64,000 nucleotides of DNA, filler included, from Jimgerdemannia flammicorona (GCA_003990765.1; 3 parts of 3 records of this genome joined end to end with filler, not necessarily neighbours in it), one strand, 5' to 3'; positions 6,365 to 43,244 are shown, counted from the first letter of the whole stretch. The notes: generated by a model from the letters alone, not told the origin. A program made the numbers and translations.

Positions 6365-6422
<58 letters not shown>

Positions 6423-6465
6423 GTCTGAATGTCTAGACTATGTACGTATTTAAAGTGATGTGCAG

Positions 6466-7490
6466 CTACATTCTGTCGGCCAAAAAATCGATTTCAATCC
6501 TAACTTTGTCGCCGTCCTCGTTGAAAGCCTCTGCCGTCACCTGCGTGGAGCCAAAACTCAGATCCAGTGTAGCGGTCTTCTGGTGGTTATCAGGATCGGC
6601 ATTCTTGAGGACCTGCACGTTTTGCTGAACAATCTTGAATGCATTCTGAACTCCTTCCCTAGAGTTTTTTACGGGGATAACGATGCAATAGGCTTTACAG
6701 GCACTGGATTCGCAAAGCTCTATCACGTTCTTATTGCTGTCTTGGCCGCTTCCGGCCAATACCAGCATGAACCGAAAGTTTGGAATGCCTGGATTTAGTA
6801 TAGAATTCTTCACCTCTAAAAAAAGAGTGGACGAAGAATTTTCCACGCCGTCGGTGAAAACCATGAGGATGTTCTTGTATTGCTGGCGTTCAAGGGATTG
6901 AAGGAAAGCTCTTTGTCGGAAGATTCTAATACCATGTATAATGGCATCGAATAGGCTTGTCGAATCTCCAAAAATCTGCATGCCGTCCACACTGTATTTG
7001 AATACTGGGGAATATGGTTGCATATCCCTAAAGGGCAAGCACAAGTATATACAAGTATGATCAATGTCAACACCGCAATAAATAAATCACAATATTTTGT
7101 TTCACCAAGCATTCTTACCAGATTGTTATAACACTCTTGCTGAATTTTATCAAACCAACCTCATCAGCGGTATTAAGAATGTGACAGACATCTTTTATAC
7201 CATCTTTGCTTGCACTAAGCTTATCGCCATCATTCATGCTAGGGCTGGCGTCCTGGACGAACAGAAGCTTAACCGGAAGGGTCTCGTCTACACGCGAAAG
7301 TGGGACAGCTAAAGTTGCAGCCAATCTCATGGAGGGAACCATGTAAATTTCGTCATCACGATCAGTAGTGTAAAGTTCGAGTTTGGCGATATCTTGAGTT
7401 GTAAGGACGGGAAAAAACCTACATTAGCATGAGAAAAGGAATAATTTTTTATTGACATCTGGTGAAGACGGAAGCATGAGTGCGAAAATT

Positions 7491-7531
<41 letters not shown>

Positions 7532-9649
7532 CCAGCGTACACTGTCTGAATCAGCTCGTGAACCCCGACAGACTGCCCTCTTCTGACAATGGCATGGAAC
7601 AAATTGTCTGCATAATCCATTTGCGCTTCCTGCAATGTAATCACGTAACTGATTAATACCAAAATTATCGCAATTTATTAATTTGGGTAACTAAATACAA
7701 CCTCATTCCAATATTTTGCTGACTCGCCAAGTGGGTTTGTTGATGTCCATGGGCCAGAAGTTTTTACCCCGTAAGTAAGACGTGCGCAGCGGCTTGTAAT
7801 AAACCTAAAAGTTGAAGCAATGATTTCAGAAATTGTATACATAAAAAGCCTAATAGTCAATGGAATCGATTATCGTATATACCTTGTGTTAAGTCCACAA
7901 ATAACTGCTCCTTTGACAACCGCACTACCGGGGTCCACTGGACAAACCATTTCGATACGATCACCAAATTTTTCCTGTGCGCGCCGCCAAAGGTATTTGC
8001 TGGCCGAAAACCCCCCAACAAAGCACATTCTGTTTATCTTTGCATTGACATCCTTTCGTTTCATGGCAAGCCTTTTCTGACTCCTATCAAGATGTTTCTC
8101 AACGAGATCAAGTGCTTTGTCAACGATAGGGTCGAACATGTTGAGCATATCCGTTAGTGTAATGACCAAATTACTCCGCGTATCTTCCAAGTGCTGCTGG
8201 TCCATCTGATCGCAGAGCTTTCTTGGGATTTCCAAGCATTTCTCCGAATTTCTTCCGGAAAAACTTTCGGGTCCTTTGAACTCACGCTGCAAACATTGAA
8301 AGTGTTGTATTAGTATCAGTTTTTTTTTTTTTTAGCGAAATTGCAAAGCGTTTTTAACTTAGCAAATACAAATACGTAAACTTAACCTTGAGCTGTTCCC
8401 AAGCTTTCATTAACATAAACCATTCTGATTTATGTGTGTTCCGAAAATTCTGAACTACAGATGCACCACATCGACTCTCAACGAACTTCGCAAACTTGTC
8501 ATCAACGAATGTTGATCCGAAGGGGCCGCCAATACCTTCGACAATCTCTCGTAAAGATTCAGCGCCCGTATTATTATCTCTAAGTATTTCATGAGCAGTC
8601 TTTGGACAGGAAGATTATACAATAAGTCATCGTCACGGTGATCGTTCAACCCTGGCTCTGCCAACTAATTACTTACCAAATCAATCGTGCCACCACCGGC
8701 GTCGACAATAATGAAGGCGTCACCCGACTGCAGCATATTTTCGTTTGCTTTCTCACAGCACCACAGTGCAGCTGCTTCGGGCTCCAAAACAATATTAAGT
8801 CGAGATGAATCGTTTTGGGCCTCTTCAGGTACCTGCATTATAGGTCGGTAGTAAAATTTAACCAGGAATTGATCCAATGTTTGTACGCAGAGCATTGAAC
8901 ATCTATACTTACAATCCCAGCCAACACTACAGCCATTCTCATCTGTTGCTTAGCGTGTTCGCTCCACATTGCCGGCACGGTAAGATACCAAGCTATGGCT
9001 TCTGGAGTTATAGTGTCTCCATAACTCTTTTTGAGTTCCTCACAAAACACGCCATGGAGGCAGCGGAAATAATCGGCGATGATTTCCAAAACTGTATAAC
9101 CGGGTGGAAGTGGCGGCATTTGCCGAGAAACGGATTCGTCGAGATGCAGCTTGAATCTGCTGCAAAAATGCGACTGTTTGGATAGGCCATATGTGGGGAT
9201 ATTCTTGATGGCTGTTGGAAGCATAATTATTCAGTTAAACATTGCTGAGAGTGTGGAGACGATGAAGCTTGTAATCAAATGGATTACCTGAATACCCCCA
9301 ACTCTCCACGGAGGGAGTTATCGAAAAAAGCGTAGAACTATATTCGTATAGAATAGCCGTAAGATTCTTGCAATAAGGAACAAGCTGATCATCCCAGAGG
9401 TAATTGGCCTCGGGGATTCTGCCGCTGACGTGGACCTGCAAAAAAGAGCAAGCGAGATATAATACATCGAAATACACGGCAACGTTCAGTTGACTAAAAC
9501 CAATGGGCATAAGAGCGCAAAACCCCTCTTACCAACGCAAAGCCCGAATGGGTGGTTCCAAAATCGATAGCAGCTATTATCCTGGTGTTTGGGCCATGAG
9601 ATGGAATCCGCCTTTGCTGCGACGGAGAAATGGATGGGTTTGGGAGCAT
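6466..9649 (-). CDS. HSPA12-type atypical Hsp70 with an inserted von Willebrand factor A domain; 10 exons
   Basis: The spliced product has [84 protein letters not shown] and RLTYGV. It continues into a vWA domain ([22 protein letters not shown]) and then the HSPA12-like terminus [12 protein letters not shown]...KVRIEIDFL. All introns reconstruct as GT-AG with consistent phase. Confidence 0.88.
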
Positions 9650-10232
9650 TCCGAAACTTTTGGTTGAGTTTTATCACTTGGAAGCTTGGGGTACAGGATG
9701 TTTATATATTAGAGGACCCATCGATCAAATGTTGAATCTTTAGTCACTACTGATGTCATGCCTCTGATGAAACACGCAGCATTGTTTGTTCAATACAACG
9801 TCGGACTTCTGTTGTATTTTAGATTGACACGCCGAATGAAAACAACGCCAATTATTTCAAGAGTTAGATGTGAAGTGACAACGAAGGCACGTTCAACGAT
9901 GTCACAGAATCACGACGTTTTTATGCATTCATATAGAGGAAGGATGGGCGGTGATAATGCAGAAACAATCTGGAGGTTTCAGAACTTATATAACTTATTC
10001 TGATGTGCGCCTTGTTCTCAGAATGTGTCCCAGGCCTTTGAAACGCCGAGTAATCTTATCAATGCATGATCGTGAGTGACTTCTAGGTCAGAAACAAAAT
10101 TCCTTATACTTGAATATATAACATGCGCCATTTATTTCTGGTCTGAACTATATAATTGATTTGCATCACTAATCACTTCTCTGTCCAGCTGGCACTCTCA
10201 TTCCTCCCTAAGACAACTCGGCAGTCATCGAA

Positions 10233-12041
10233 ATGGTTAAGCTGCGGGGTAGACGCGAAGTCCTGAGCAACCAGGAAGGGTATCTCATTTCCCGGCCCGA
10301 ACAAGGGAGTTCTCGAGACGATGGAACGAACGAGTATACAATAAAGAAACAGCTAACGACGAAGAAAGACGATAACCTCGGCAGCAAAGCAAAAAAAGTA
10401 CAAACAACCACAACTGACGGGCACCATAATTTCAAGCAGAAGCGAAAGCAGCCAAAGCAAACATTCCGCGAACAACTCATGCACCAGAAAGAGACAATTT
10501 ACAACGAAGTTCTTGCCGATATGATGAACCTGAGAAAAGTGTTCGCGTCAGATAACAGAATATACAATTGGATTCGCTGCTGGGGTGGTTATTCAGACGA
10601 CACAGTCCGCGCATCGCAAATGCTGATGAAAGATGCAAGGCAAAAACTACTAGCATACGTGGCAAAGTTCAACGAAGGATGGGAGGCTGAGGAGAGAGAA
10701 CGAAAAAGGCTCGAAGAGAATTACGCCCAACTAGATAAAGAAACCAAGGACTACAGAAAAAAGTTCGACGATTTCCGGATGGAGCTGGAGGTGGGCACAG
10801 CTGAGATTAAAAAATTGGAGAGCGAGAACCGATCGCTCCAAAAGCAACGAAATGAAGTTATAGACAAATTGAACGAGCAGATATATGACAATGGGCAATT
10901 GGAAAAAACTGTTCAAAAGGAGATCGATACCCTCAAGACTAATAATCAAGTCCTCACCGACCAGGCTCACTGGATGAGCCAGAAATTGCTCGGCTACGAA
11001 ACAAAGGAGCTGAGGGATTCCAGATTTCGCGCCAGAGACTCGGGCGGCAAACCGAAGGGCATCTTCGATATGGAAGGCGTCAACCCGGAAAGCTTTGGCA
11101 GCACATGGTCGATAATCTACCAAACCATGCACAATATTGTAAGTCACATGTCAAAACTTGGTGGATTCAACAGTCAAATCATCCAAGAACTCCTCCATCA
11201 AGCGACGAAGGATTATACGACGGACATCACGATCAAGCCAGTCGATGAAATCCGGTTCGTGGAGCACTCGATCACCAGAGAGTTGATATCGATTTGGGGG
11301 GCCACCTCTATCCAGAATTTTGCGGTGCTCGATTTGGAACAAACATTACCCGACATTATCTTCGAGGAATTAGATCAGATAAATGCGTTTCTCTCATCGG
11401 AGATAACTGGGAAAGACAAAGATTCCGAGATGTTCGTGGCCTCGATTCGTATGAAGGCCGGCTTTGCTAACTTCCTTTTAAGCAAACTCTCAAAGCCAGA
11501 TGATTTGAGCAATGAATTCGACGGCCAGAGTTATAATCCATTCAGCTCAGTGGAACAGGGTCTGAGGGAACGCTTAACGCTATATTGCGAAGCTAAAATG
11601 ACGAGGATGTATCACCTTATGCTCTCTTTCGGTTCCGGCGCCGAGACGCAAAAGCAGATAATCATCGATTTTGCTCCAATGTTTCGTATGCTGACGTACG
11701 CGTCCGTCTACGGTCGCCTACAGATGGACGTACTGGGAGAAGGAAAAATGACCGTTTTCTTGCCTGGAACATTTCCTCACAACGGAGTCAGTGGCAAATC
11801 TGACAGCACGCAGGACCCAGCAATTTCTGCCACGAAGCCAAAATCGTCGTTGGTTCCGCTCGATGAAGCGCTGTACACGTCCGTGGGCTTTCTGCCATCG
11901 TCCGTCCCCATGTCAAAAGAACGACCATCTAAGTGGGCTCTTTTTACAGTTTTCCCCGGGGTTGCGTATATCGACGTAGACAAGAGCCAGTCGCGCGGAT
12001 TGACCGTGGTCGAGAAGTGTCGCGTGTATAGTTTGGAGTGA
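10233..12041 (+). CDS. Intronless 602-aa coiled-coil protein with a putative GrpE-like/GIL1-IRKI-like C-terminal beta domain
   Basis: Long uninterrupted ORF with heptad-rich, charged residues at ~130-255. C-terminal motifs are VPLDEALY and LFTVFPGVAY...VVEKCRVY. Confidence 0.8.
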   Translation: MVKLRGRREVLSNQEGYLISRPEQGSSRDDGTNEYTIKKQLTTKKDDNLGSKAKKVQTTTTDGHHNFKQKRKQPKQTFREQLMHQKETIYNEVLADMMNLRKVFASDNRIYNWIRCWGGYSDDTVRASQMLMKDARQKLLAYVAKFNEGWEAEERERKRLEENYAQLDKETKDYRKKFDDFRMELEVGTAEIKKLESENRSLQKQRNEVIDKLNEQIYDNGQLEKTVQKEIDTLKTNNQVLTDQAHWMSQKLLGYETKELRDSRFRARDSGGKPKGIFDMEGVNPESFGSTWSIIYQTMHNIVSHMSKLGGFNSQIIQELLHQATKDYTTDITIKPVDEIRFVEHSITRELISIWGATSIQNFAVLDLEQTLPDIIFEELDQINAFLSSEITGKDKDSEMFVASIRMKAGFANFLLSKLSKPDDLSNEFDGQSYNPFSSVEQGLRERLTLYCEAKMTRMYHLMLSFGSGAETQKQIIIDFAPMFRMLTYASVYGRLQMDVLGEGKMTVFLPGTFPHNGVSGKSDSTQDPAISATKPKSSLVPLDEALYTSVGFLPSSVPMSKERPSKWALFTVFPGVAYIDVDKSQSRGLTVVEKCRVYSLE

Positions 12042-13639
12042 GAGCTTTGATAGTATAGCAACGTTTGAAGTAGCGATTGTTGATTAGAGGTTGCATGATG
12101 TGTGCTTGACTTGCCAAAGAGCAACTGTTCAATTTTTTTTTTTTTTTTTTTTTTGGATTTGTTTGAGATATTCATTCACGGTCTAATAGTAGTCCACCTT
12201 TCTCAGGTGCTGGTAGCAAAATCACTGGATTCTACGGAATAAAGACCTCGGATATAGTCGATGGTTTCCATTGGTTGCTAGCCAACATAAGCGACCGTAG
12301 GAGACGTGATCAGGGAGATCTCGTCTAGTTTTGTCCAAGAATTTTCTAGGCCGGCAAATTAGGGGGTCGGCGTTTTGGATGTCAACAGAGGGTTTATAGT
12401 CGCGGAGCAAGTGGAGGGATTGTAAAGTGTGGTGGCGACACGGGTCCATTGCGGCATGTGGGTGTTGGATGTTCAACCATAGGCAATCTGTCAAAGCCGA
12501 GGCATCTTGCAATATCGTTGGAACGGTCAGGTGTCTGCACGAATGCTTATATAAGTATTGCGATACCACAAACTTGCAGGATGCTCATGAGCAAGGCAAG
12601 TAATGGCAAGCAACCGACCTTTAATTTAGCCAAGCAAGAGTGGACGGCTAGATGGAACCGCCAGAGATTTGGGAATCGCAAATATGGACGCTCACGGAAT
12701 AAATAGAGCGTATTCAGATCATTGAGTTTATTGGATTATGCCTGTCGTAGGCTCGCCTTGAAACGAGGTTTCCATTCATTTAAACGTCATAGGTTATTAT
12801 CTGTGACTTGCTGACTGAATGCTTTCTTTGCATATGGGAAGAACGCGGAACCTGGGGATAGATGGTATGTCACGGTTGTTCACACCTGGGTACGAAACGG
12901 TGAAGGAGACCTACACTTTTTGGTATTTGTACCGAAACGCGCTGCTTCGGGAGTGTTCATATCAGAAGTCGCGTTATCATTATGGGGCCGTTTCCGCAGC
13001 GACTCGGGCAGCAGCCCTGGAGACGGTTAACAATCGTCGATGGAGGTTTCTAGTATAATCTTGACCACATTTTGTTGTAGGAAATGAATTTATAACGCGA
13101 TCTAGGTTACGTTTGTAGCTTTTAAGCGAATTAGGGCACTCCCTGAAAATATGGAAACCTGGTAAACATTCATCCTCATTTATTTATTTATTTATTTTCT
13201 ACAATTTTTACCCACTTTTACTGAGGGATTTAGGTTGAAACTCGTACGAAAGGAATTCTCCTCGTTCGTTGAGTAAATTAGGTTTGTAGTACACATGAGC
13301 TCTCCCCGTTCGTGATATACACATTCCACATGAATCATATCCTCCGCCACGTGGGTGTCGCCGTGTGTATTGCCGCGGTTCGCAATAATCCGACCACGTG
13401 GCGCCGTGACATAACATGAATCATCCAGCCTGAAGGCAAATTCGAATCGAACGAACTGAATCGATTCAGCCCGAGATTTGATTCAATGTCAAACCACAGC
13501 CCATATTTTGGAAGGGATAGAAATTAACAATTGCCATATGACTACGCTTACGAGCGGGAAGGGACTTGAACCACCTAAGTGCAGTTGAACTTACCTACTA
13601 GAAAGTGGGAGCGTGTACTGCGAGCGAATTCGCAGTATA

Positions 13640-15600
13640 TTTTATATTTCTGACTTATGTTTCCGACATATTGATCTGCCAAATAGTTTGTATATTTCAA
13701 ACCTATATATAATATCAGCTAGCTCTATCATTCCATGACTGAAAGGCATTTTATTACTCGAAATAATATAAATATTACTAACTTTAGTCAGTTTAAGTAT
13801 TTTGAAATAGGGCAAAGATATACTATATAGTTTTATTTATTTATTTAATCTTATATCTTATCTTCTTTAGAAGAATCTATACTTTTATCTATATTCTCAC
13901 TTCTATTATTATTGCTACTACTGTCTATATTTATAATTAAGATCTAATTTAATTTAAATTTAATTTAGTTTAAAAATTTAAAATAATTTTTAACTTGTTG
14001 AATTCATCTTATCTCTTAGTTTATAGAGTAGATGAATTTAAATAATATAAATTTATAAATAATAATATATATATGTTTTTCATTATAAATATAACTCAAT
14101 TTGTTCAAAAATAAATATTTATTTTTTTAGTAAAAGAAATTTTTCAAAGTTATTACAATATAATGAGTTATTATCTATTTGCTAAATTTAACTATATTAT
14201 AGAATAAGATATATATATTTTTAAAAAAATAAAATATAAATAAAATAAAAAATATAAATAAATTCAATATAATGAAAATTATTAAATTTAGATATATTTT
14301 AATTAAGAAAAGTTTGATAAAAATAATTTAATTTATTTAAAAATATTAATCTCTATAAATATCATAAATCTATATACTGATAGAATTAATATATTACAGA
14401 TGATCAAAATAACTACTAGTTCTAAGTTCTGAGTTTTTGTAAAAAAGTACTAAGTTCTAATTATCTATTGCAGCAATATAGTCTAAGTATCATTTTCAGA
14501 TTTTCATATAACAGAGGTACTATACTTATATTCTAAGTTGATTAGACTCAGAATTGTTAATAAGTTAAATCTGAGAGTTTTTGATAAGAATACTACTTTA
14601 TTCTTATATTTAGAGAAAGTAGAGCTAAGGTTACAATATACTCAATATAGAGGATATTTGTATAGATTTAAAGCTATAACTAAATATAGTATATTTGATA
14701 TATATATCTATAAATATTCTCTATACTAAGTATATTATAACCTCAGCTCTACTTTCTCTGAATATAAGAATAAAGTAATATTCTTATCACAAAGAACCCT
14801 CAGATCCAACTTATTAATAATTCTGAGTCTAATTAACTTAAAATATAAGTATAATCTTCTTATTAATATAAAAATCCAAAAGTAATATCTAGACTCTATC
14901 ACAATAGATAATTAAAATTTAGTGTTTTCTTAAAAACTCAAAACTTAGAGCTGATAGTCATTATTAATTATTTATAATATATTAATTCTATCAGTATAGT
15001 TTTATTACAGACTGTTTATTGGAAATTCTATTGAAATTTTCAGTAGCTTATTGATATATAATAAACTATTATAATAAACTTATTAATTTAAATTATAGGT
15101 AATTATAAATAGAAATTATAAATAATTATAAGATAAAAATAATAATTAATATAAATATATTGACTAAAAAATAAAATTATAGTAAATTAATTATATTTTA
15201 ATTTATATCATATTGTTTTATTTCTTTATCTAAAAAAAAAATATACCTTTTTTAAAAAAAAAAAAAAAAAAAAATTATAAAATTTTTACCAAAAATAGAA
15301 TTATTATATAAAAAATTATTGGTATTTTTTTTAAAAAAGCTATTATAATTTTAAAAGATATAAACTTTTAAAATCTTACCTCTAAATATAGGTACAAAAT
15401 AGATAAAGAGATATAGTTTATTATTATTTTATTTTATTAATTTCAAATATAATAAACTTTAATTTAATTTACTTTCATTTCTTTAAATAAAGCTTTATAA
15501 TTGATTTAAATCAACATATTTTTCATATTAAACAAATCAAATACTAACTGGACCAATCAAAATTCCATATGCAACAAGTATCCATTCAAATTTATAATCA
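13640..15600. other. Very AT-rich block of decayed repeat sequence
   Basis: Almost no CpG, no substantial ORFs, and an abrupt compositional boundary with the flanking genes. Confidence 0.75.
14373..14998. mobile_element. Foldback/MITE-like palindrome with ~290-bp inverted arms, TA-flanked
   Basis: The left end tatactgatagaattaatatatta pairs with the right end taatatattaattctatcagtata. Internal pairs include agactcagaatt/aattctgagtct and agaaagtagagct/agctctactttct. The spacer is ~40 bp near 14670-14705. Confidence 0.8.
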
Positions 15601-15992
15601 ACACCAAAAATAAATTTGGTCTGTTGTGGCGGTTTATTGTATTCGGAGTTTTGTTTCCGATGACAGGTCTTTCGCTCAAATTAATATTTCGTCCCCTTTC
15701 GCACAGGGTTTTGGCGACATGTTTTCATCGCCGCGCGTTGCAGCGGCACGTCACACGTCGCACGCCATGCTCGTTTGCTGAAACGGGAGGATGAAGTGAG
15801 CAGTCCATTGGATTTGTTGACATAAGTAAACATGTCATTTGGATCGCAACAGTCACGCGTGCATTTATGTCCATATTTTGGTCTTGTGATGGCCTTCGCG
15901 GGCGTGATGTTTGCATTTGCGCCGATTTAGGTTGACATGTAGCGTGGTGCACACTACATAAGACGATCGAACTCTGAATCGACAAAACTGTC

Positions 15993-18900
15993 ATGGGCGA
16001 CAGCGACATCAGAGTCGCGCATAATATTGGACGCGATTCGCCGAATGGCGACTCACCCTCGAAACCGTTCGAGATTTTACGGCATTCTCTCCCACGCACC
16101 TTCCTCCTTTCGGCAGATCACGTAATCCTGGGCGAAAAGCTAGGTTCCAGCGCGTTCTCCTCCGTCCACTGTGGGACTCTTAGAGGCACCACTGTCGCCG
16201 TGAAGCGGATGCCGGTATTCAAGGCCAGCTCCGAGAAGGCGAGCAAAATTGCGCTGAATGAACTGAAGCTGCTCCTCCGCCTCCGGCACCACAACTTTGT
16301 CATCCAGCTCATCGGATACTACCTGTCCGACACAGCGATCTGCATTGTAATGTCGTACGCAGAGAACGGCGACCTCCAGCGGTACCTACAGGCTGGGAAG
16401 TTGGAGGGGAATTGGGCTAGGAAGGTATGGAAAACTGGCTGGGAAATGATGAGACTTTTTGCCCATTGTATATCTGGCTGACTTGCCTCCTTTTTTTTTG
16501 GCTTGAAAGGCCCAGATTTGCAAGGATATCGCCAAGGCGGCGGATTCAGTTCATAAAGAACACATTCTTCATGGCGTTTTGAACTGTTCGAACATCTTAT
16601 TGGATCGTCTTCTGACACCAAAGGTACGACCACATTAGCCTCGATCAATATTATTGCGTGCTTAGACGATAAACCAACATAGCGCACTTTGACATTGCCC
16701 TTTTCATTATCCTTTTCCCGTTTCCATTGCTTAGCTTACCGACTTCAGTGTTAGCAGAAGTGGCTCTTCGATTGATAGAGGCTCTGATCTTGGCAGCAGC
16801 TTCCGATACATTGCACCAGAGCGTTTGATCAAATCCAGCAAAGGAATTCCTCACAAAGAAGCTCTTTTGAGCGACATCTATTCGTACGCTTACGTTGTGT
16901 GGGAAGTTGCAACCGACGGGCTGCTGCCGTACAACAATATTAAGTGCTACAGTTCAATGCTTACAGTCAAAATCAACACCGGCGAACAGCTTCAGTTCAT
17001 CGGAGACTTTCCCGAAGAAACCCCTCAAGTCTTTCGTGACACCGTTAAGCAGTGTTTAGCGTTCGATCCGTTTTTTCGCCCATCGCTCTCTTCGGTGCGA
17101 GATGCCTTCGACAATTTCATCGTCATCGCACCGGCGCCCATGGACCTTCCATTCACCGTTTGTGACGACACCCCGAGATCACTCCTATCGCCAACTTTTA
17201 ACAATTCTGAAATTTCCGACTTGCGCGCAGATGTTGGAGACGATAAGATCAACGCACTCTCCGAACCGCAGAAGGAGCTCTTCGAGATCGCAATGCATTT
17301 ATACGAAGACGGCAAGTTCACAAGTGCCATTGAGCGATTCCAGAGTCCTACATTATTCTGGGTTACTCTCGCGCAGCGCATGGTCGTGCACTGTCATAAA
17401 GCCATCGGCAAGAACCCGTCAGAGGTCTTCCAGGCCTTCAAGGGATTGGCGGAACGATCCGATGCCAGAGGGCAGTTCTGTCTTGCCTGGTGCTACGACC
17501 ACCGTTACGGAACTCAGCAGGATACTAAGTTGGCCTTTCGGTGGTACTCGTCGTCTATGAGGGCGGGGAACCTTGCGGCGGCGGCTGTTTTACGGGATAT
17601 GAAGTGGATCGAAAACCTGTACGACGTCGTCGTTCAATGGTCTACCGACGCTTCGGTGTTTGATTTTCTGCGGGAGCTCTTCAAGTCTGACGATTCCAGA
17701 ACATTTGCAATCACGGTCTTAAAATGTGCTAGGGAAGGAGATGTACGTGCTCGATATATCTATGTAATTGCGTATTACTCGGGAAGTCTGCTACACCATG
17801 TCGACGAGCATGGCAGGATTTATTCAGAATTAGATGACAAGTTTCTTATCTCAGGTGGCGAATCTTTCACGATAGTCGTCGAACTCAGCATCTACGGAAA
17901 CGAGATGGCACAAAGCGAAGTCGAGAGGCGCATTGAAACAGCAGAATCCGATTCAAACGCCGGCATCAACTTCTCGGAGAGCTTTCGGCTCCTGTTTGAG
18001 GCGGCCAAGAAAGAGAACTCGGAATCACCGTTCTGTCAGCGCCTAATCGCATTATGTTACGAGCTCGGCGTCGGTGTCGAAAAGGATGTCTCAAAATCCC
18101 TTGCATTTAATTCAGCCGCAGCGAACGCCGGAGACGTTCGTGCGCAGTACAAACAGTTCCTTCAGTACCAGCTTGGCGAGGGCACGGAAGCGCACCCAGA
18201 GTTGGCCTTCACTTGGGGTCTGAGTGCAGCCGACACGGGACGTCTCGGCGGTCAGCCTAGACTCGGCGAATTGCATTACAACAGCATAGGCGCCACACAA
18301 TCCATCAACTTGTTCTCCACAGCAGCTCTTGCGAAAGCAATGTACTGTCTCGGCCGCGCTCATTTTTATGGCAGAGGCGCAAATCTAGACGAGCGAGCGG
18401 CATGTCGTTGGTTCAGCAGGGCGGCAAATGCAGGGAACGCGGACGCACTGTGGTGGGCGGGCCTCTGCCACCTGCACGGGCACGGCACGGCGACGGATCC
18501 CCAGGCTGCGTACGCATTTTTCCTGAAGGCTGCAGACGAGGGGCACGCGTGGGCCATGTACTACGTTGGAGAGGAGTACATTGAAGGCAACTATCTCGGA
18601 CGGGACCTCGTCAAGGCGAAGGAGTACATGGCGAAGGCGGCCGATGGCGATATCAACGATGCGATAATGGCCTTGCGCAGGCCCCCGCTGGCCGAGCCGG
18701 CAGCCGAGCCGGCAGGCGAAGAGGCGTCCGAGCCGGCGTCGAACGACCCCTGGCAAGTCTTACAGAAACCCAACGAGCCGATGCCCAACGAGCCGATGCC
18801 CAACGAGCTGACGCCCGACGAGCCGATGCCCAACGAGCCGATGCCCGACGAGCCGATACCCGACGAGCCGATCTATCCCGACGAGTCGATGATCGCGTTG

Positions 18901-19095
18901 CCGGTCTATCCCGACGAGGCGCCGCCGGTCTATCCCCACGAGACGCCGCCGGCCAATTGGGCGATGGTGGCGTTGAGAGCACCACAGCCGCCGGCCAATC
19001 GTTTGGTATTGGGGTTGAGGGCACCAAGCGGAGGTCAGTCTTTGTCCTCGACGCCCAAAAAACGGAAATTCCGGTTCTTCTGGAAACGTAGGTGA
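15993..19095 (+). CDS. TKL-like pseudokinase fused to Sel1-like repeats; 3 exons (15993-16424, 16510-16623, 16735-19095), ~968 aa
   Basis: Kinase motifs are VAVK, NELKLL, ILHGVLNCSNILL, LTDFS, RYIAPE and SDIYSYAYVVWE. Several Sel1 repeats follow (for example AMYCLGRAHFYGRG...AACRWFSRAANAGN). Splice phases are consistent. Confidence 0.9.
18768..18950 (+). repeat. Coding minisatellite (15-bp PNEPM/PDEPM units, then 24-bp PVYPDE units)
   Basis: Tandem cccaacgagccgatg / cccgacgagccgat units are visible. Confidence 0.85.
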
Positions 19096-21526: not shown

Positions 21527-21626
21527 NNNNNNNNNNNNNNNNNNNNNNNNNNNNNNNNNNNNNNNNNNNNTTAATTAATTAANNNNNNNNNNNNNNNNNN
21601 NNNNNNNNNNNNNNNNNNNNNNNNNN
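21527..21626. other. Assembly gap with artificial TTAATTAATTAA linker
   Basis: N run with a central six-frame-stop linker. Confidence 0.95.
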
Positions 21627-43144: not shown

Positions 43145-43244
43145 NNNNNNNNNNNNNNNNNNNNNNNNNNNNNNNNNNNNNNNNNNNNTTAATTAATTAA
43201 NNNNNNNNNNNNNNNNNNNNNNNNNNNNNNNNNNNNNNNNNNNN
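43145..43244. other. Assembly gap with artificial TTAATTAATTAA linker
   Basis: N run with a central linker. Confidence 0.95.

What the first reader, a model, noticed from the sequence alone, without database searches (positions are those of the whole stretch)
6466..12041. Head-to-head pair: atypical HSPA12-type Hsp70 and a coiled-coil protein with a GrpE-like head
Seen: the two start codons (9649 minus, 10233 plus) are only ~580 bp apart on a shared divergent promoter. The partner has a long coiled coil, a helical middle, then VPLDEALY and FTVFPG...VVEKCRVY at the extreme C-terminus. Established: GrpE, the DnaK nucleotide-exchange factor, is a coiled coil plus helical bundle plus small beta domain with FDPxxH and GY...RxAxV motifs, and is encoded next to dnaK in bacteria. 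HSPA12 proteins have no co-chaperone known to me. From memory, similar ends occur in plant GIL1/IRKI and animal Mieap C-terminal domains. Inference: a dedicated, co-regulated Hsp70/GrpE-like two-gene module in a eukaryote, arranged like sensor-executor immune pairs.
Basis: partly seen in the sequence, partly recalled or inferred. Interest (0 to 1): 0.82.

Follow-up and report, generated by a model that had tools for sequence, protein, structure and literature searches.

The report
Hsp70-vWA ATPase and coiled-coil partner
In a root-associated early-diverging fungus, an unusual Hsp70-type ATPase fused to a vWA docking domain sits head-to-head with a coiled-coil gene whose tail may be a very diverged GrpE-type helper, which hints at a cofactor for the poorly understood HSPA12 chaperones.

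Summary
Named proteins that are 99-100% identical place the window in Jimgerdemannia flammicorona (Endogonales). The minus gene (9649..6466) has 10 exons. Contigs from two runs skip its introns. The plus gene (10233..12041) is an intronless 602-aa coiled-coil protein. Its last 333 aa define a family found only in Endogonales (6 relatives among 1.84 billion representatives).

The two genes are also neighbours in Endogone sp.: consecutive accessions on one 6,979-bp contig.

Direct tests for GrpE on the fungal protein (Pfam, PDB profile, AlphaFold model plus fold search) found nothing. A bridge gives indirect support. In 76 of 80 bacterial loci an HSPA12-like Hsp70 gene is followed by a partner whose tail models as a GrpE fold and matches Pfam GrpE and MIEAP. 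The fungal tail aligns colinearly with that tail, but weakly (hhalign P 4e-4; 0 of 300 shuffles reach the score). A language-model search places the fungal tail nearest MIEAP and GIL1_IRKI_C clusters.

Verdict: a real, conserved two-gene module. The GrpE-like cofactor reading is plausible but unproven. The immune-pair analogy has no support.

The parts
6466..9649 (-). HSPA12-type Hsp70 NBD + vWA gene. 10 exons: 9649-9533, 9435-9288, 9211-8913, 8832-8677, 8599-8387, 8286-7883, 7804-7702, 7629-7541, 7418-7119, 7027-6466. Product 796 aa.
   Evidence: Contigs of runs X1 and X2 skip the introns, and all 9 introns are GT-AG on the minus strand. 789 of 796 residues match P0129. Homologues.
7990..9571 (-). 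Hsp70/actin-fold ATPase motifs: [10 protein letters not shown] (9571-9542), LEPEAAAL (8787-8764), [10 protein letters not shown] (8706-8677), [10 protein letters not shown] (8019-7990)
   Evidence: The same columns are invariant or nearly invariant in the 74-sequence alignment A5.
6697..7267 (-). vWA domain (about residues 561-720, interrupted by intron 7028-7118) with MIDAS residues DASPS (7252-7238), GDSTSL (6969-6952) and FTDGVEN (6858-6838)
   Evidence: Pfam VWA E 2.5e-9, 38.1 bits (cut-off 23.8) on the near-identical P0129. E 4.9e-4 on the last exon alone. Motif positions.
9650..10232 (.). 583-bp divergent intergenic region. TATA-like words at 9702-9708 (minus-strand sense) and 10149-10155 (plus).
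   Evidence: Read from the sequence. The partner contigs begin at 10169 (X1) and 10177 (X2). Promoter function is inferred, not tested.
10233..12041 (+). Partner gene: intronless, 602 aa (P0001)
   Evidence: ORF. Unspliced contigs cover 10169-12093 (X1) and 10177-12038 (X2).
10650..11018 (+). Coiled-coil-like segment (residues 140-262)
   Evidence: No proline and 59% E/K/Q/R/D/L. Only weak coiled-coil Pfam matches. Inferred.
11040..12038 (+). Conserved C-terminal region (residues 270-602) that defines the Endogonales-only family. Mostly helical, with short strands.
   Evidence: HMMER search of 1.84 billion representatives found 6 true relatives, E 1e-18 to 2.7e-8. Alignment A1. AF2 pLDDT 68.8, pTM 0.73.
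11841..12038 (+). Tail (residues 537-602) with L[DE]xxL[HY], FxT[VI]FPG[VI] and KCxV[LY]. Candidate diverged GrpE/MIEAP-type wing.
   Evidence: hhalign against the tail of the bacterial GrpE-fold partner family. ESM nearest named clusters are MIEAP and GIL1_IRKI_C. AF2 confidence is low here.

Best explanation
This is a two-gene module kept together in Endogonales fungi. Gene 1 encodes an ATP-hydrolysing HSPA12-type Hsp70 nucleotide-binding domain that lacks the classical substrate-binding domain. In its place it carries a C-terminal vWA/MIDAS domain, which probably docks a target protein. Gene 2 is transcribed divergently from the shared 583-bp spacer. It encodes a long coiled-coil protein, probably a dimer, whose extreme C-terminus is a strongly diverged GrpE/MIEAP-type wing. 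The most likely mechanism is that the partner is the dedicated cofactor of the neighbouring ATPase. It would bind the nucleotide-binding domain and control ADP/ATP exchange, as GrpE does for DnaK, while its coiled coil and helical middle give the complex reach or a scaffold. Shown: gene structures, spliced and unspliced contigs, domain content, neighbouring genes in a second genus, and the bacterial Hsp70-like/GrpE-fold operon. Inferred: homology of the fungal tail to that wing, physical binding, exchange activity and co-regulation.
For: (1) Gene 1 carries the intact Hsp70 motifs and a vWA domain with a MIDAS motif. (2) Each gene is covered by its own contig in 2 of 2 runs from two studies, and the gene 1 contigs skip its introns. 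(3) In Endogone sp., partner homologue P0005 (RUS16016.1) and Hsp70-like P0011 (RUS16017.1) have consecutive accessions and locus tags on one 6,979-bp contig. (4) Both the partner family (6 of 6 true relatives; 5 named, 1 unnamed) and the vWA-fused HSPA12 form (all 5 vWA-bearing relatives seen) were found only in Endogonales. (5) In bacteria, 76 of 80 loci with an HSPA12-like Hsp70 gene have a same-strand downstream ORF of one family. BLAST clustering alone joined 57 of the 80. (6) An AF2 model of that family's tail (pLDDT 84.8) gives GrpE or GrpEL1 as all 11 rows listed at Foldseek ranks 1-12 (E 1.2e-4 to 9.2e-3; the next row is E 0.25). It also gives the best two VIA rows (Z 7.2 and 6.2). 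(7) Of 57 tails scanned against Pfam, 8 hit GrpE (best E 0.017) and 6 hit MIEAP (best E 3.8e-6, 27.5 bits against a cut-off of 27). (8) The fungal tail aligns with that bacterial tail in the same order of blocks: FDPxxHE with L[ED]xxLH, CxxGxvxFvVxPGY with ExDxxvlxTiFPGv, and K..VFT with KCxVLS at the very end. The hhalign score is 20.5, P 4e-4. 300 column shuffles gave mean 8.4, sd 1.95, max 18.5, and 0 of 300 reached the score. The extended alignment covers 72 columns. (9) ESM features put the fungal region nearest to GIL1_IRKI_C (0.81) and MIEAP (0.80). For the tail alone the nearest are MIEAP clusters (0.81 and 0.80, one mostly Mucoromycota).
Against: No member of the fungal family (0 of 7) matches Pfam GrpE, MIEAP or GIL1_IRKI_C at E<=10. 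A profile of the family finds no GrpE chain in the PDB, only coiled coils. The fungal profile finds nothing significant among 5,480 ORFs of the bacterial loci (best E 0.43). The bacterial-tail profile scores the fungal proteins at E 2.4 to 560. The significant hhalign core is only 15 columns. I restricted the comparison to the tails after seeing the motif. Whole-alignment comparisons gave P 0.009 and, with the coiled coils included, an irrelevant hit. The ESM scores are below 0.9, a range the tool calls a lead only. The AF2 model of the fungal region is mostly a helical bundle with no PDB match (best Z 5.9), and its tail is low-confidence. The other four named partner paralogues lie on contigs whose lengths (22,396; 10,031; 8,348; 33,829) differ from those of the listed Hsp70-vWA paralogues (18,413; 7,534; 4,474). 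So adjacency is shown for 2 loci only. Gene orientation in Endogone is unknown.
Confidence: 0.5

Rival explanations
1. The partner is a client, scaffold or ligand of the vWA/MIDAS domain rather than a nucleotide-exchange factor. In this reading the Hsp70-like ATPase remodels or assembles the coiled-coil protein, which is docked through an acidic motif such as the conserved L[ED]xxLH in its disordered loop.
For: Both the vWA fusion and the partner family were seen only in Endogonales, whereas HSPA12-like proteins without vWA are widespread. The MIDAS motif is intact. The conserved acidic motif sits in a segment predicted to be disordered (pLDDT below 50 at region residues 244-298).
Against: No test of vWA binding was made. 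The bacterial partners accompany Hsp70-like proteins that lack vWA. The fungal tail resembles those partners in block order.
Confidence: 0.2
2. The partner is a lineage-specific coiled-coil protein of unrelated function. It lies next to the ATPase gene only by shared ancestry of the Endogonales chromosome segment, and the tail motif resemblance is chance.
For: All direct family tests were negative. Adjacency is shown in only 2 loci of two related genera. Other paralogues appear to be dispersed. The helical core has no known fold.
Against: The partner differs far more between the two genera than the ATPase does (25% against 47-49% identity), yet the two genes remain neighbours. The motif score exceeded 300 of 300 shuffles. 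The independent language-model search pointed to MIEAP and GIL1_IRKI_C. MIEAP is also the family the bacterial partners hit.
Confidence: 0.2
3. The pair is an immune or conflict module arranged like sensor-executor pairs, with the vWA domain or the coiled coil as sensor.
For: There are several paralogues of both genes per genome. The partner diverges fast. From my own knowledge, not a call: HSPA12 genes are expanded in bivalves and vWA domains occur in bacterial conflict systems. The bivalve expansion is also stated in PMC13580251 (passage read).
Against: No effector, death-fold, NACHT/NB-ARC or other immune-type domain was found in either protein. The neighbouring genes are a kinase-Sel1 gene and unrelated ORFs. 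No defence-system library was searched.
Confidence: 0.05

Closest known systems
DnaK-GrpE (Hsp70 and its nucleotide-exchange factor; human mortalin-GrpEL1)
   Same: An Hsp70-type ATPase gene lies next to a gene for a coiled-coil protein. The block order of the partner's tail resembles FDPxxH ... The bacterial counterparts of this module model as a GrpE fold.
   Different: The fungal partner is 602 aa, about three times the length of the solved GrpE chains listed (151-187 residues). It has a ~220-aa helical domain of no known fold and long insertions in the tail. It matches no GrpE profile. The ATPase lacks a substrate-binding domain and carries vWA. No J-domain gene was seen nearby.
Vertebrate HSPA12A/HSPA12B and HSPA12-like 'actin-like ATPase domain' proteins of fungi, bivalves and cyanobacteria
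   Same: The ATPase domain is homologous (E about 1e-69 to proteins named HSPA12A or 12B-like) and has the same motifs.
   Different: Among the relatives seen here the C-terminal vWA fusion occurs only in Endogonales. Earlier notes of this scan report one in Naegleria, which I did not check. A 2026 review calls HSPA12 function unknown (PMC13580251, passage read).
Unnamed bacterial operon: HSPA12-like Hsp70 followed by a GrpE-fold/MIEAP-like coiled-coil partner (76 of 80 loci here)
   Same: The same pairing of ATPase and coiled-coil partner. The long cyanobacterial partners are of similar size (about 500-616 aa). The tail blocks are colinear.
   Different: The bacterial genes are co-directional and nearly abutting, while the fungal pair is divergent. 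The sequence link is weak (P 4e-4 over 15 columns). The bacterial ATPases lack vWA.
MIEAP/SPATA18 C-terminal domain (PF16026) and plant GIL1/IRKI C-terminal domain (PF24994)
   Same: These are coiled-coil proteins with a small C-terminal domain (recalled, no call). They are the nearest named clusters by ESM features (0.77-0.81). Bacterial partners of HSPA12-like Hsp70s hit PF16026 (6 of 57, best E 3.8e-6).
   Different: No Pfam match for any of the 7 fungal proteins. Known Mieap biology (mitochondrial quality control, recalled) has no stated link to Hsp70-type ATPases. My search for papers with both 'Mieap' and 'GrpE' found one incidental co-mention.
ATPase + MIDAS machines (MoxR-vWA pairs, midasin/Rea1, VWA8); recalled from memory, not tested
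   Same: An NTPase is coupled to a vWA/MIDAS docking domain.
   Different: Those use AAA+ ATPases. Here the motor is an Hsp70/actin-fold ATPase.

Membership tests
HSPA12-type atypical Hsp70 | Hsp70/actin-fold ATPase motifs (phosphate 1 DFGT, EPxAAA, phosphate 2 DxGGGTxD, adenosine GGxS) | tested here: met
   All four motifs are present in the spliced product. The same columns are invariant or nearly invariant among 74 relatives.
HSPA12-type atypical Hsp70 | Closest named relatives are HSPA12A/B-type rather than DnaK/HSPA1/Hsp110 | tested here: met
   Named hits include HSPA12A (Mytilus), 12A-like and 12B-like (Mya) and 'Heat shock 70 kDa protein 12A' (Lunasporangiospora). No canonical DnaK appears among the 120 listed.
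HSPA12-type atypical Hsp70 | No canonical Hsp70 substrate-binding domain | tested here: met
   The Pfam HSP70 matches of close relatives end inside the ATPase part of the profile (P0130: 137-368 of 599; P0010: 138-205). The C-terminus is vWA instead.
vWA (PF00092) | Profile match above the curated cut-off | tested here: met
   P0129, which matches the window product at 789 of 796 residues, scores 38.1 bits against a cut-off of 23.8, E 2.5e-9. The window's last exon alone scores 20.8 bits.
vWA (PF00092) | MIDAS motif DxSxS ... T ... D | tested here: met
   DASPS, GDSTSL and FTDG are present. Metal binding was not tested.
GrpE (PF01025) | Sequence-profile match to GrpE | tested here: not met
   0 of 7 family members hit PF01025 at E<=10. 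No GrpE chain appears among the 31 PDB sequences matched by the family profile.
GrpE (PF01025) | Long N-terminal helix or coiled coil ahead of the head domain | tested here: met
   A proline-free stretch at residues 75-273 with coiled-coil composition and weak coiled-coil Pfam matches. Dimerisation was not tested.
GrpE (PF01025) | C-terminal beta-wing fold | tested here: inconclusive
   The AF2 model has short strands at the end, but pLDDT there is 31-74. The fold searches mainly tested residues 15-234 and list no GrpE.
   Only degenerate versions are present. They align colinearly with the tail of the bacterial GrpE-fold family at hhalign P 4e-4 to 2.5e-3, and 0 of 300 shuffles reach the score.
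GrpE (PF01025) | Encoded beside its Hsp70 | tested here: met
   Head-to-head in the window. Neighbours in Endogone sp..
GrpE (PF01025) | Binds the ATPase domain and accelerates nucleotide exchange | not testable with these tools
   Needs biochemistry.
MIEAP (PF16026) / GIL1_IRKI_C (PF24994) | Profile match | tested here: not met
   0 of 7 members at E<=10.
MIEAP (PF16026) / GIL1_IRKI_C (PF24994) | Nearest named families by language-model features | tested here: inconclusive
   Scores of 0.77-0.81, below the 0.9 the tool asks for. 8 of the ten best named hits share a family or clan.
Bacterial HSPA12-operon partner (unnamed family D) | Significant profile match to the family's tail | tested here: not met
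   hmmsearch with the A6 profile scores the fungal proteins at E 2.4 to 560. Only the profile-profile motif match is above chance.

The most novel reading that the evidence does not exclude
HSPA12-type Hsp70s, whose function and cofactors are unknown, have had a dedicated GrpE-fold partner since bacteria. The MIEAP (animals, Mucoromycota) and GIL1/IRKI (plants) C-terminal domains are eukaryotic descendants of that wing. The Endogonales pair is then a eukaryotic locus that still keeps ATPase and cofactor side by side, with a vWA domain added as the target-docking module. If so, Mieap-type proteins would act through an Hsp70-like ATPase.
Probability: 0.3. Interest if true: 0.85.

Novelty: new variant of a known kind. 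Interest (0 to 1): 0.64.

Why it matters
HSPA12 proteins occur from bacteria to humans and are greatly expanded in bivalves and mycorrhizal fungi. A 2026 review still calls their function unknown (PMC13580251, passage read). A dedicated exchange-factor-like partner would make the family biochemically testable: pull-down and ADP-release assays with a defined pair. The vWA fusion suggests how an Hsp70 without a substrate-binding domain finds its targets. The bridge seen here between bacterial partners, GrpE and the MIEAP domain would also give a mechanistic lead for Mieap/SPATA18 and plant GIL1/IRKI proteins. My searches for HSPA12 with 'von Willebrand' and fungi, Mieap with GIL1, Mieap with GrpE, HSPA12 with 'nucleotide exchange factor' and coiled-coil, and HSPA12 with GrpE turned up no paper describing such a module. 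Most listings were seen as titles and abstract starts only.

Tried and rejected
- Whole genome of the window: none is held, so paralogue neighbourhoods could not be surveyed.
- Word-index search with the whole partner found only itself.
- Automatic intron model from consensus rules: wrong from exon 6 onward. It was replaced by the contig-supported model.
- Complex prediction with the ATPase domain (residues 1-545 of P0129) and the partner region (333 aa): verdict 'no answer', score 0.05 against a mark of 0.34. The alignments were not used and the controls were not run. This is not evidence either way. The vWA domain was not tried because only one job is allowed.
- The look-up of sequencing runs: no RNA holder listed; both holders are 'RNA?' guesses.
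- No contig cover at 9838-10028 in either run. This is not used as evidence.
- Depths were not used to rank the two genes.
- Fold searches of the fungal model: no Foldseek match at E<=0.001 and best VIA Z 5.9 on a helical segment. GrpE is absent from these rows, but the tail was barely tested.
- Profile of the whole bacterial partner (A3) and of its last 130 aa (A4) against PDB sequences: only coiled coils and designed helical proteins, no GrpE.
- Protein comparison A3 against A1: an irrelevant coiled-coil hit, P 0.035.
- Long HSPA12-like relatives (about 900-1,150 aa) were checked for a fused partner-like domain. They are tandem ATPase domains, and one carries SH3. None has MIEAP or GrpE.
- Metagenome scan for partner relatives: A1 was too diverse to make patterns. 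With A7, 116 pattern matches were found and 0 confirmed.
- tblastn of P0129, P0001, P0002 and P0130 against the window: no second copy of either gene.
- Own-scan look-ups by place and by sequence: nothing.
- The PADLOC and PHROGs libraries were not searched.

Full report
**Where the window comes from.** The minus-strand gene's largest exon matches, at 99% identity, a protein named 'hypothetical protein BC938DRAFT_472784 [Jimgerdemannia flammicorona]' on a 21,526-nt contig. The first N run of the window starts at 21527. The organism is therefore an Endogonales fungus (Mucoromycota). No whole genome is held for the window.

**Observation.** The two start codons are at 9649 (minus) and 10233 (plus), with 583 bp between them. 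The plus gene is one open frame of 602 aa. A proline-free, charge-rich stretch covers residues 75-273.

**Structure of the minus gene.**
- The gene is split into exons.
- Contigs from two public runs (two studies, kind guessed as RNA) lie on it and skip 8 introns whose ends read GT..AG on the minus strand.
- A ninth intron (7419-7540) spans a masked poly-T. I inferred it from the record coordinates and from the reading frame.
- The resulting 10-exon model encodes 796 aa and matches P0129, a 797-aa 'VWFA domain-containing protein' of another isolate, at 789 of 796 residues.
- The deposited model for this locus (P0009, 667 aa) skips much of the last exon and so loses half of the vWA domain.
- The partner gene is covered by its own unspliced contig in both runs: 10169-12093 in X1 and 10177-12038 in X2.
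- The simplest reading is that both genes are transcribed. An intron-less DNA copy cannot be formally excluded, because the run type is a guess.

**What gene 1 is.**
- It has the Hsp70/actin-fold motifs [28 protein letters not shown] and [10 protein letters not shown]. These columns are invariant or nearly so in 74 relatives.
- A search listed 750 relatives. The named ones include HSPA12A, 12A-like and 12B-like proteins of bivalves, 'actin-like ATPase domain' proteins of Glomeromycota and Mucorales, and ~576-aa 'Hsp70 family proteins' of cyanobacteria.
- After the ATPase domain comes a vWA domain: Pfam VWA E 2.5e-9, 38.1 bits on P0129. Its MIDAS residues DASPS, GDSTSL and FTDG are intact.
- Among the relatives seen, vWA occurs only in Endogonales proteins: P0010, P0129 and P0130, and truncated in P0009 and P0012.
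- The longer relatives are tandem ATPase domains or SH3 fusions.

**What gene 2 is.**
- Pfam finds only weak coiled-coil matches.
- An exhaustive HMMER search of 1.84 billion representatives with residues 270-602 found 8 proteins at E<=0.001. One is the protein itself, one is a repeat artefact (P0007), and 6 are true relatives (E 1e-18 to 2.7e-8).
- Five of the six are named: four from J. flammicorona and one from Endogone sp. The sixth is an unnamed 253-aa fragment.
- All share a variable N-terminus, a coiled coil and the ~330-aa C-terminal region.
- AlphaFold2 on this region with 7 sequences gave pLDDT 68.8 and pTM 0.73. It shows a helical bundle at residues 16-232, a disordered loop at 244-298 and short terminal strands of low confidence.
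- Foldseek found nothing at E<=0.001, and VIA-align gave at best Z 5.9 on helical segments. No GrpE chain is listed, but the tail was barely tested.

**Conserved adjacency.** P0005, the Endogone partner homologue, is RUS16016.1 (BC937DRAFT_91693). P0011, an Endogone Hsp70-like protein 47% identical to the window's by BLASTP (49% in alignment A5), is RUS16017.1 (BC937DRAFT_91694). Both are on a contig of 6,979 nt. Their orientation is unknown. The partner proteins are only 25% identical between the two genera, yet the genes stay together. The other partner paralogues lie on contigs whose lengths differ from those of the listed Hsp70-vWA paralogues. So adjacency is shown for two loci and is not general.

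**The GrpE question, direct tests.** All were negative or uninformative:
- No PF01025, PF16026 or PF24994 hit in 0 of 7 members at E<=10.
- No GrpE among the PDB sequences matched by the family profile.
- No GrpE in the fold-search rows.

**The GrpE question, indirect route.**
- Earlier AI notes of this scan claimed that HSPA12-type Hsp70 genes sit next to GrpE-like coiled-coil genes in Naegleria and in bacteria. I tested the bacterial part.
- A scan of one genome per prokaryotic species with cyanobacterial relatives (alignment A2) returned 80 loci in cyanobacteria, Thiotrichaceae, Methylococcaceae, Chloroflexota, Flavobacteriaceae, Acidobacteria and many actinomycetes.
- BLAST clustering joined the same-strand ORF just downstream in 57 of the 80 loci (68 had such an ORF called) into one family.
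- A profile built from 44 of these tails finds a member just downstream in 76 of 80 loci. For the 44 members used to build the profile this count is circular.
- The family consensus ends '..G.pFDP..HEaw.gCd..G.v.FvV.PgYvV.gR...Ka.VFT'.
- Of 57 tails, 8 hit Pfam GrpE (best E 0.017) and 6 hit MIEAP. The best is E 3.8e-6, 27.5 bits against a cut-off of 27, and it aligns to the last 100 positions of the profile.
- An AF2 model of the L013 tail (44 sequences, pLDDT 84.8) returned GrpE or GrpEL1 in all 11 rows listed at Foldseek ranks 1-12 (E 1.2e-4 to 9.2e-3; the next row is E 0.25).
- In VIA-align the same model gave GrpEL1 at Z 7.2 (101 aligned residues, rmsd 6.0) and E. coli GrpE at Z 6.2 (75 aligned, rmsd 2.8). 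These Z values are middling.
- The L013 genome also has a canonical grpE elsewhere (E 1.7e-46), so the operon partner is an extra copy.
- The bacterial module of an HSPA12-like Hsp70 plus a GrpE-fold partner is therefore well supported.

**Does the fungal partner belong to it?**
- Profile-sequence searches say no in both directions: best E 0.43, and E 2.4 or worse.
- Profile-profile comparison picks out exactly the tail.
  - With whole alignments it gives P 0.009 over 30 columns.
  - With tails only it gives score 20.5 and P 4e-4 over 15 columns, aligning 'C..G.v.FvV.PgY' with 'E.D..vl.TiFPGv'.
  - 300 column shuffles gave mean 8.4, sd 1.95 and max 18.5, so 0 of 300 reached the observed score. 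The reversed alignment scored 6.2.
  - The re-aligned path runs colinearly over 72 columns. It passes through an FDPxxHE-like block and the FxVxPG hairpin, and ends in K..V[FL][TS] at the C-terminus of both families. The fungal side has long insertions.
- I restricted the comparison after seeing the motif, so these P values are optimistic.
- Independently, the language-model atlas put the fungal region nearest, among named clusters, to GIL1_IRKI_C (0.81) and MIEAP (0.80). For the tail alone the nearest were two MIEAP clusters (0.81 and 0.80) and GIL1_IRKI_C (0.77). All scores are under the 0.9 the tool requires.
- Three weak lines (gene neighbourhood, colinear motifs, feature similarity) point the same way. 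None is decisive.

**Mechanism.** I rate as most likely (0.5) that the partner is the cognate cofactor of the neighbouring ATPase. It would act through a diverged GrpE/MIEAP-type wing on the nucleotide-binding domain, with vWA as the target-docking module that replaces the missing substrate-binding domain. The rivals are these:
- The partner is a vWA ligand or client (0.2).
- The adjacency has no functional meaning and the motif match is chance (0.2).
- The pair is an immune-type module (0.05), for which no domain evidence was found.

**Known or new.** A 2026 review states that HSPA12 function is unknown and mechanistically untested (PMC13580251, passage read). My five literature searches found no description of an HSPA12-GrpE-like module, an Hsp70-vWA fusion in fungi, or a MIEAP-GrpE link. 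The single Mieap/GrpE co-mention is incidental. Supplements were not consulted. Within this scan the module had already been noted in other genomes. New here are the fungal instance with contig support, the Endogone adjacency and the MIEAP bridge.

Noticed in passing
window 6466-7418: The deposited protein model for this locus (P0009, 667 aa) leaves out most of the last exon and ends differently. Contigs of two runs and the 797-aa model of another isolate (P0129) support a 796-aa product with a complete vWA domain.
   Followed up: yes
window 21527-21626 and 43145-43244: There are two pairs of 44-N runs separated by 12 bases. The first lies exactly at the end of the 21,526-nt contig reported for P0001 and P0009. 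The window therefore looks like three contigs joined by spacers, and only 1-21526 is certainly linked to the finding.
   Followed up: partly
window 13001-16000: A sharp AT-rich block with GC 0.18-0.35, against about 0.45-0.53 around it. It lies between the partner gene and the kinase gene.
   Followed up: no
window 15978-19092 (+): Protein kinase domain (Pkinase E 9.6e-14, continued in the next frame segment) followed by Sel1 repeats (E 3.6e-24). This is a kinase-Sel1 architecture, apparently a split gene.
   Followed up: partly
window 7482-7539 and 6400-6431: Long homopolymer runs. One is about 36 T on the coding strand inside intron 7419-7540. The other is a run just 3' of the stop codon. 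The read-laying tool masked both.
   Followed up: no
L013:9399-9788 and other bacterial loci (L009, L011, L012, L021, L027): The same bacterial tails hit both Pfam MIEAP (its last ~100 positions) and GrpE (positions about 55-161). This suggests that the MIEAP C-terminal half is a GrpE-type wing. I found no paper saying so.
   Followed up: partly
L001, L002, L008-L012, L014, L015, L020, L021, L025, L026, L028 (upstream ORFs): A second coiled-coil family lies just upstream of the Hsp70-like gene in 14 of 80 bacterial loci (218-682 aa). This makes a three-gene arrangement there.
   Followed up: no
L014:8727-10472: This member of the downstream partner cluster carries an HTH_3 domain (E 7.6e-9) near its C-terminus.
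   Followed up: no
G001 (genome of L013), C27:38347-38739 and C25:50275-50736: Besides the canonical grpE, this Nostoc genome holds further GrpE-like open frames (E 5.3e-8 and 0.0026) away from the locus studied.
   Followed up: no
window 10233-12041 compared with 6466-9649, run X2: The second run carries diverged copies of both genes. The partner differs at about 5.5% of letters and has a 12-nt in-frame deletion. The listed pieces of the ATPase gene differ at about 4%.
   Followed up: partly
window 11040-12038 (ESM atlas): The three nearest clusters overall (0.91-0.92) are unnamed hypothetical-protein clusters of Ascomycota (245-308 aa) that HMMER did not find. They may be remote relatives.
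   Followed up: no
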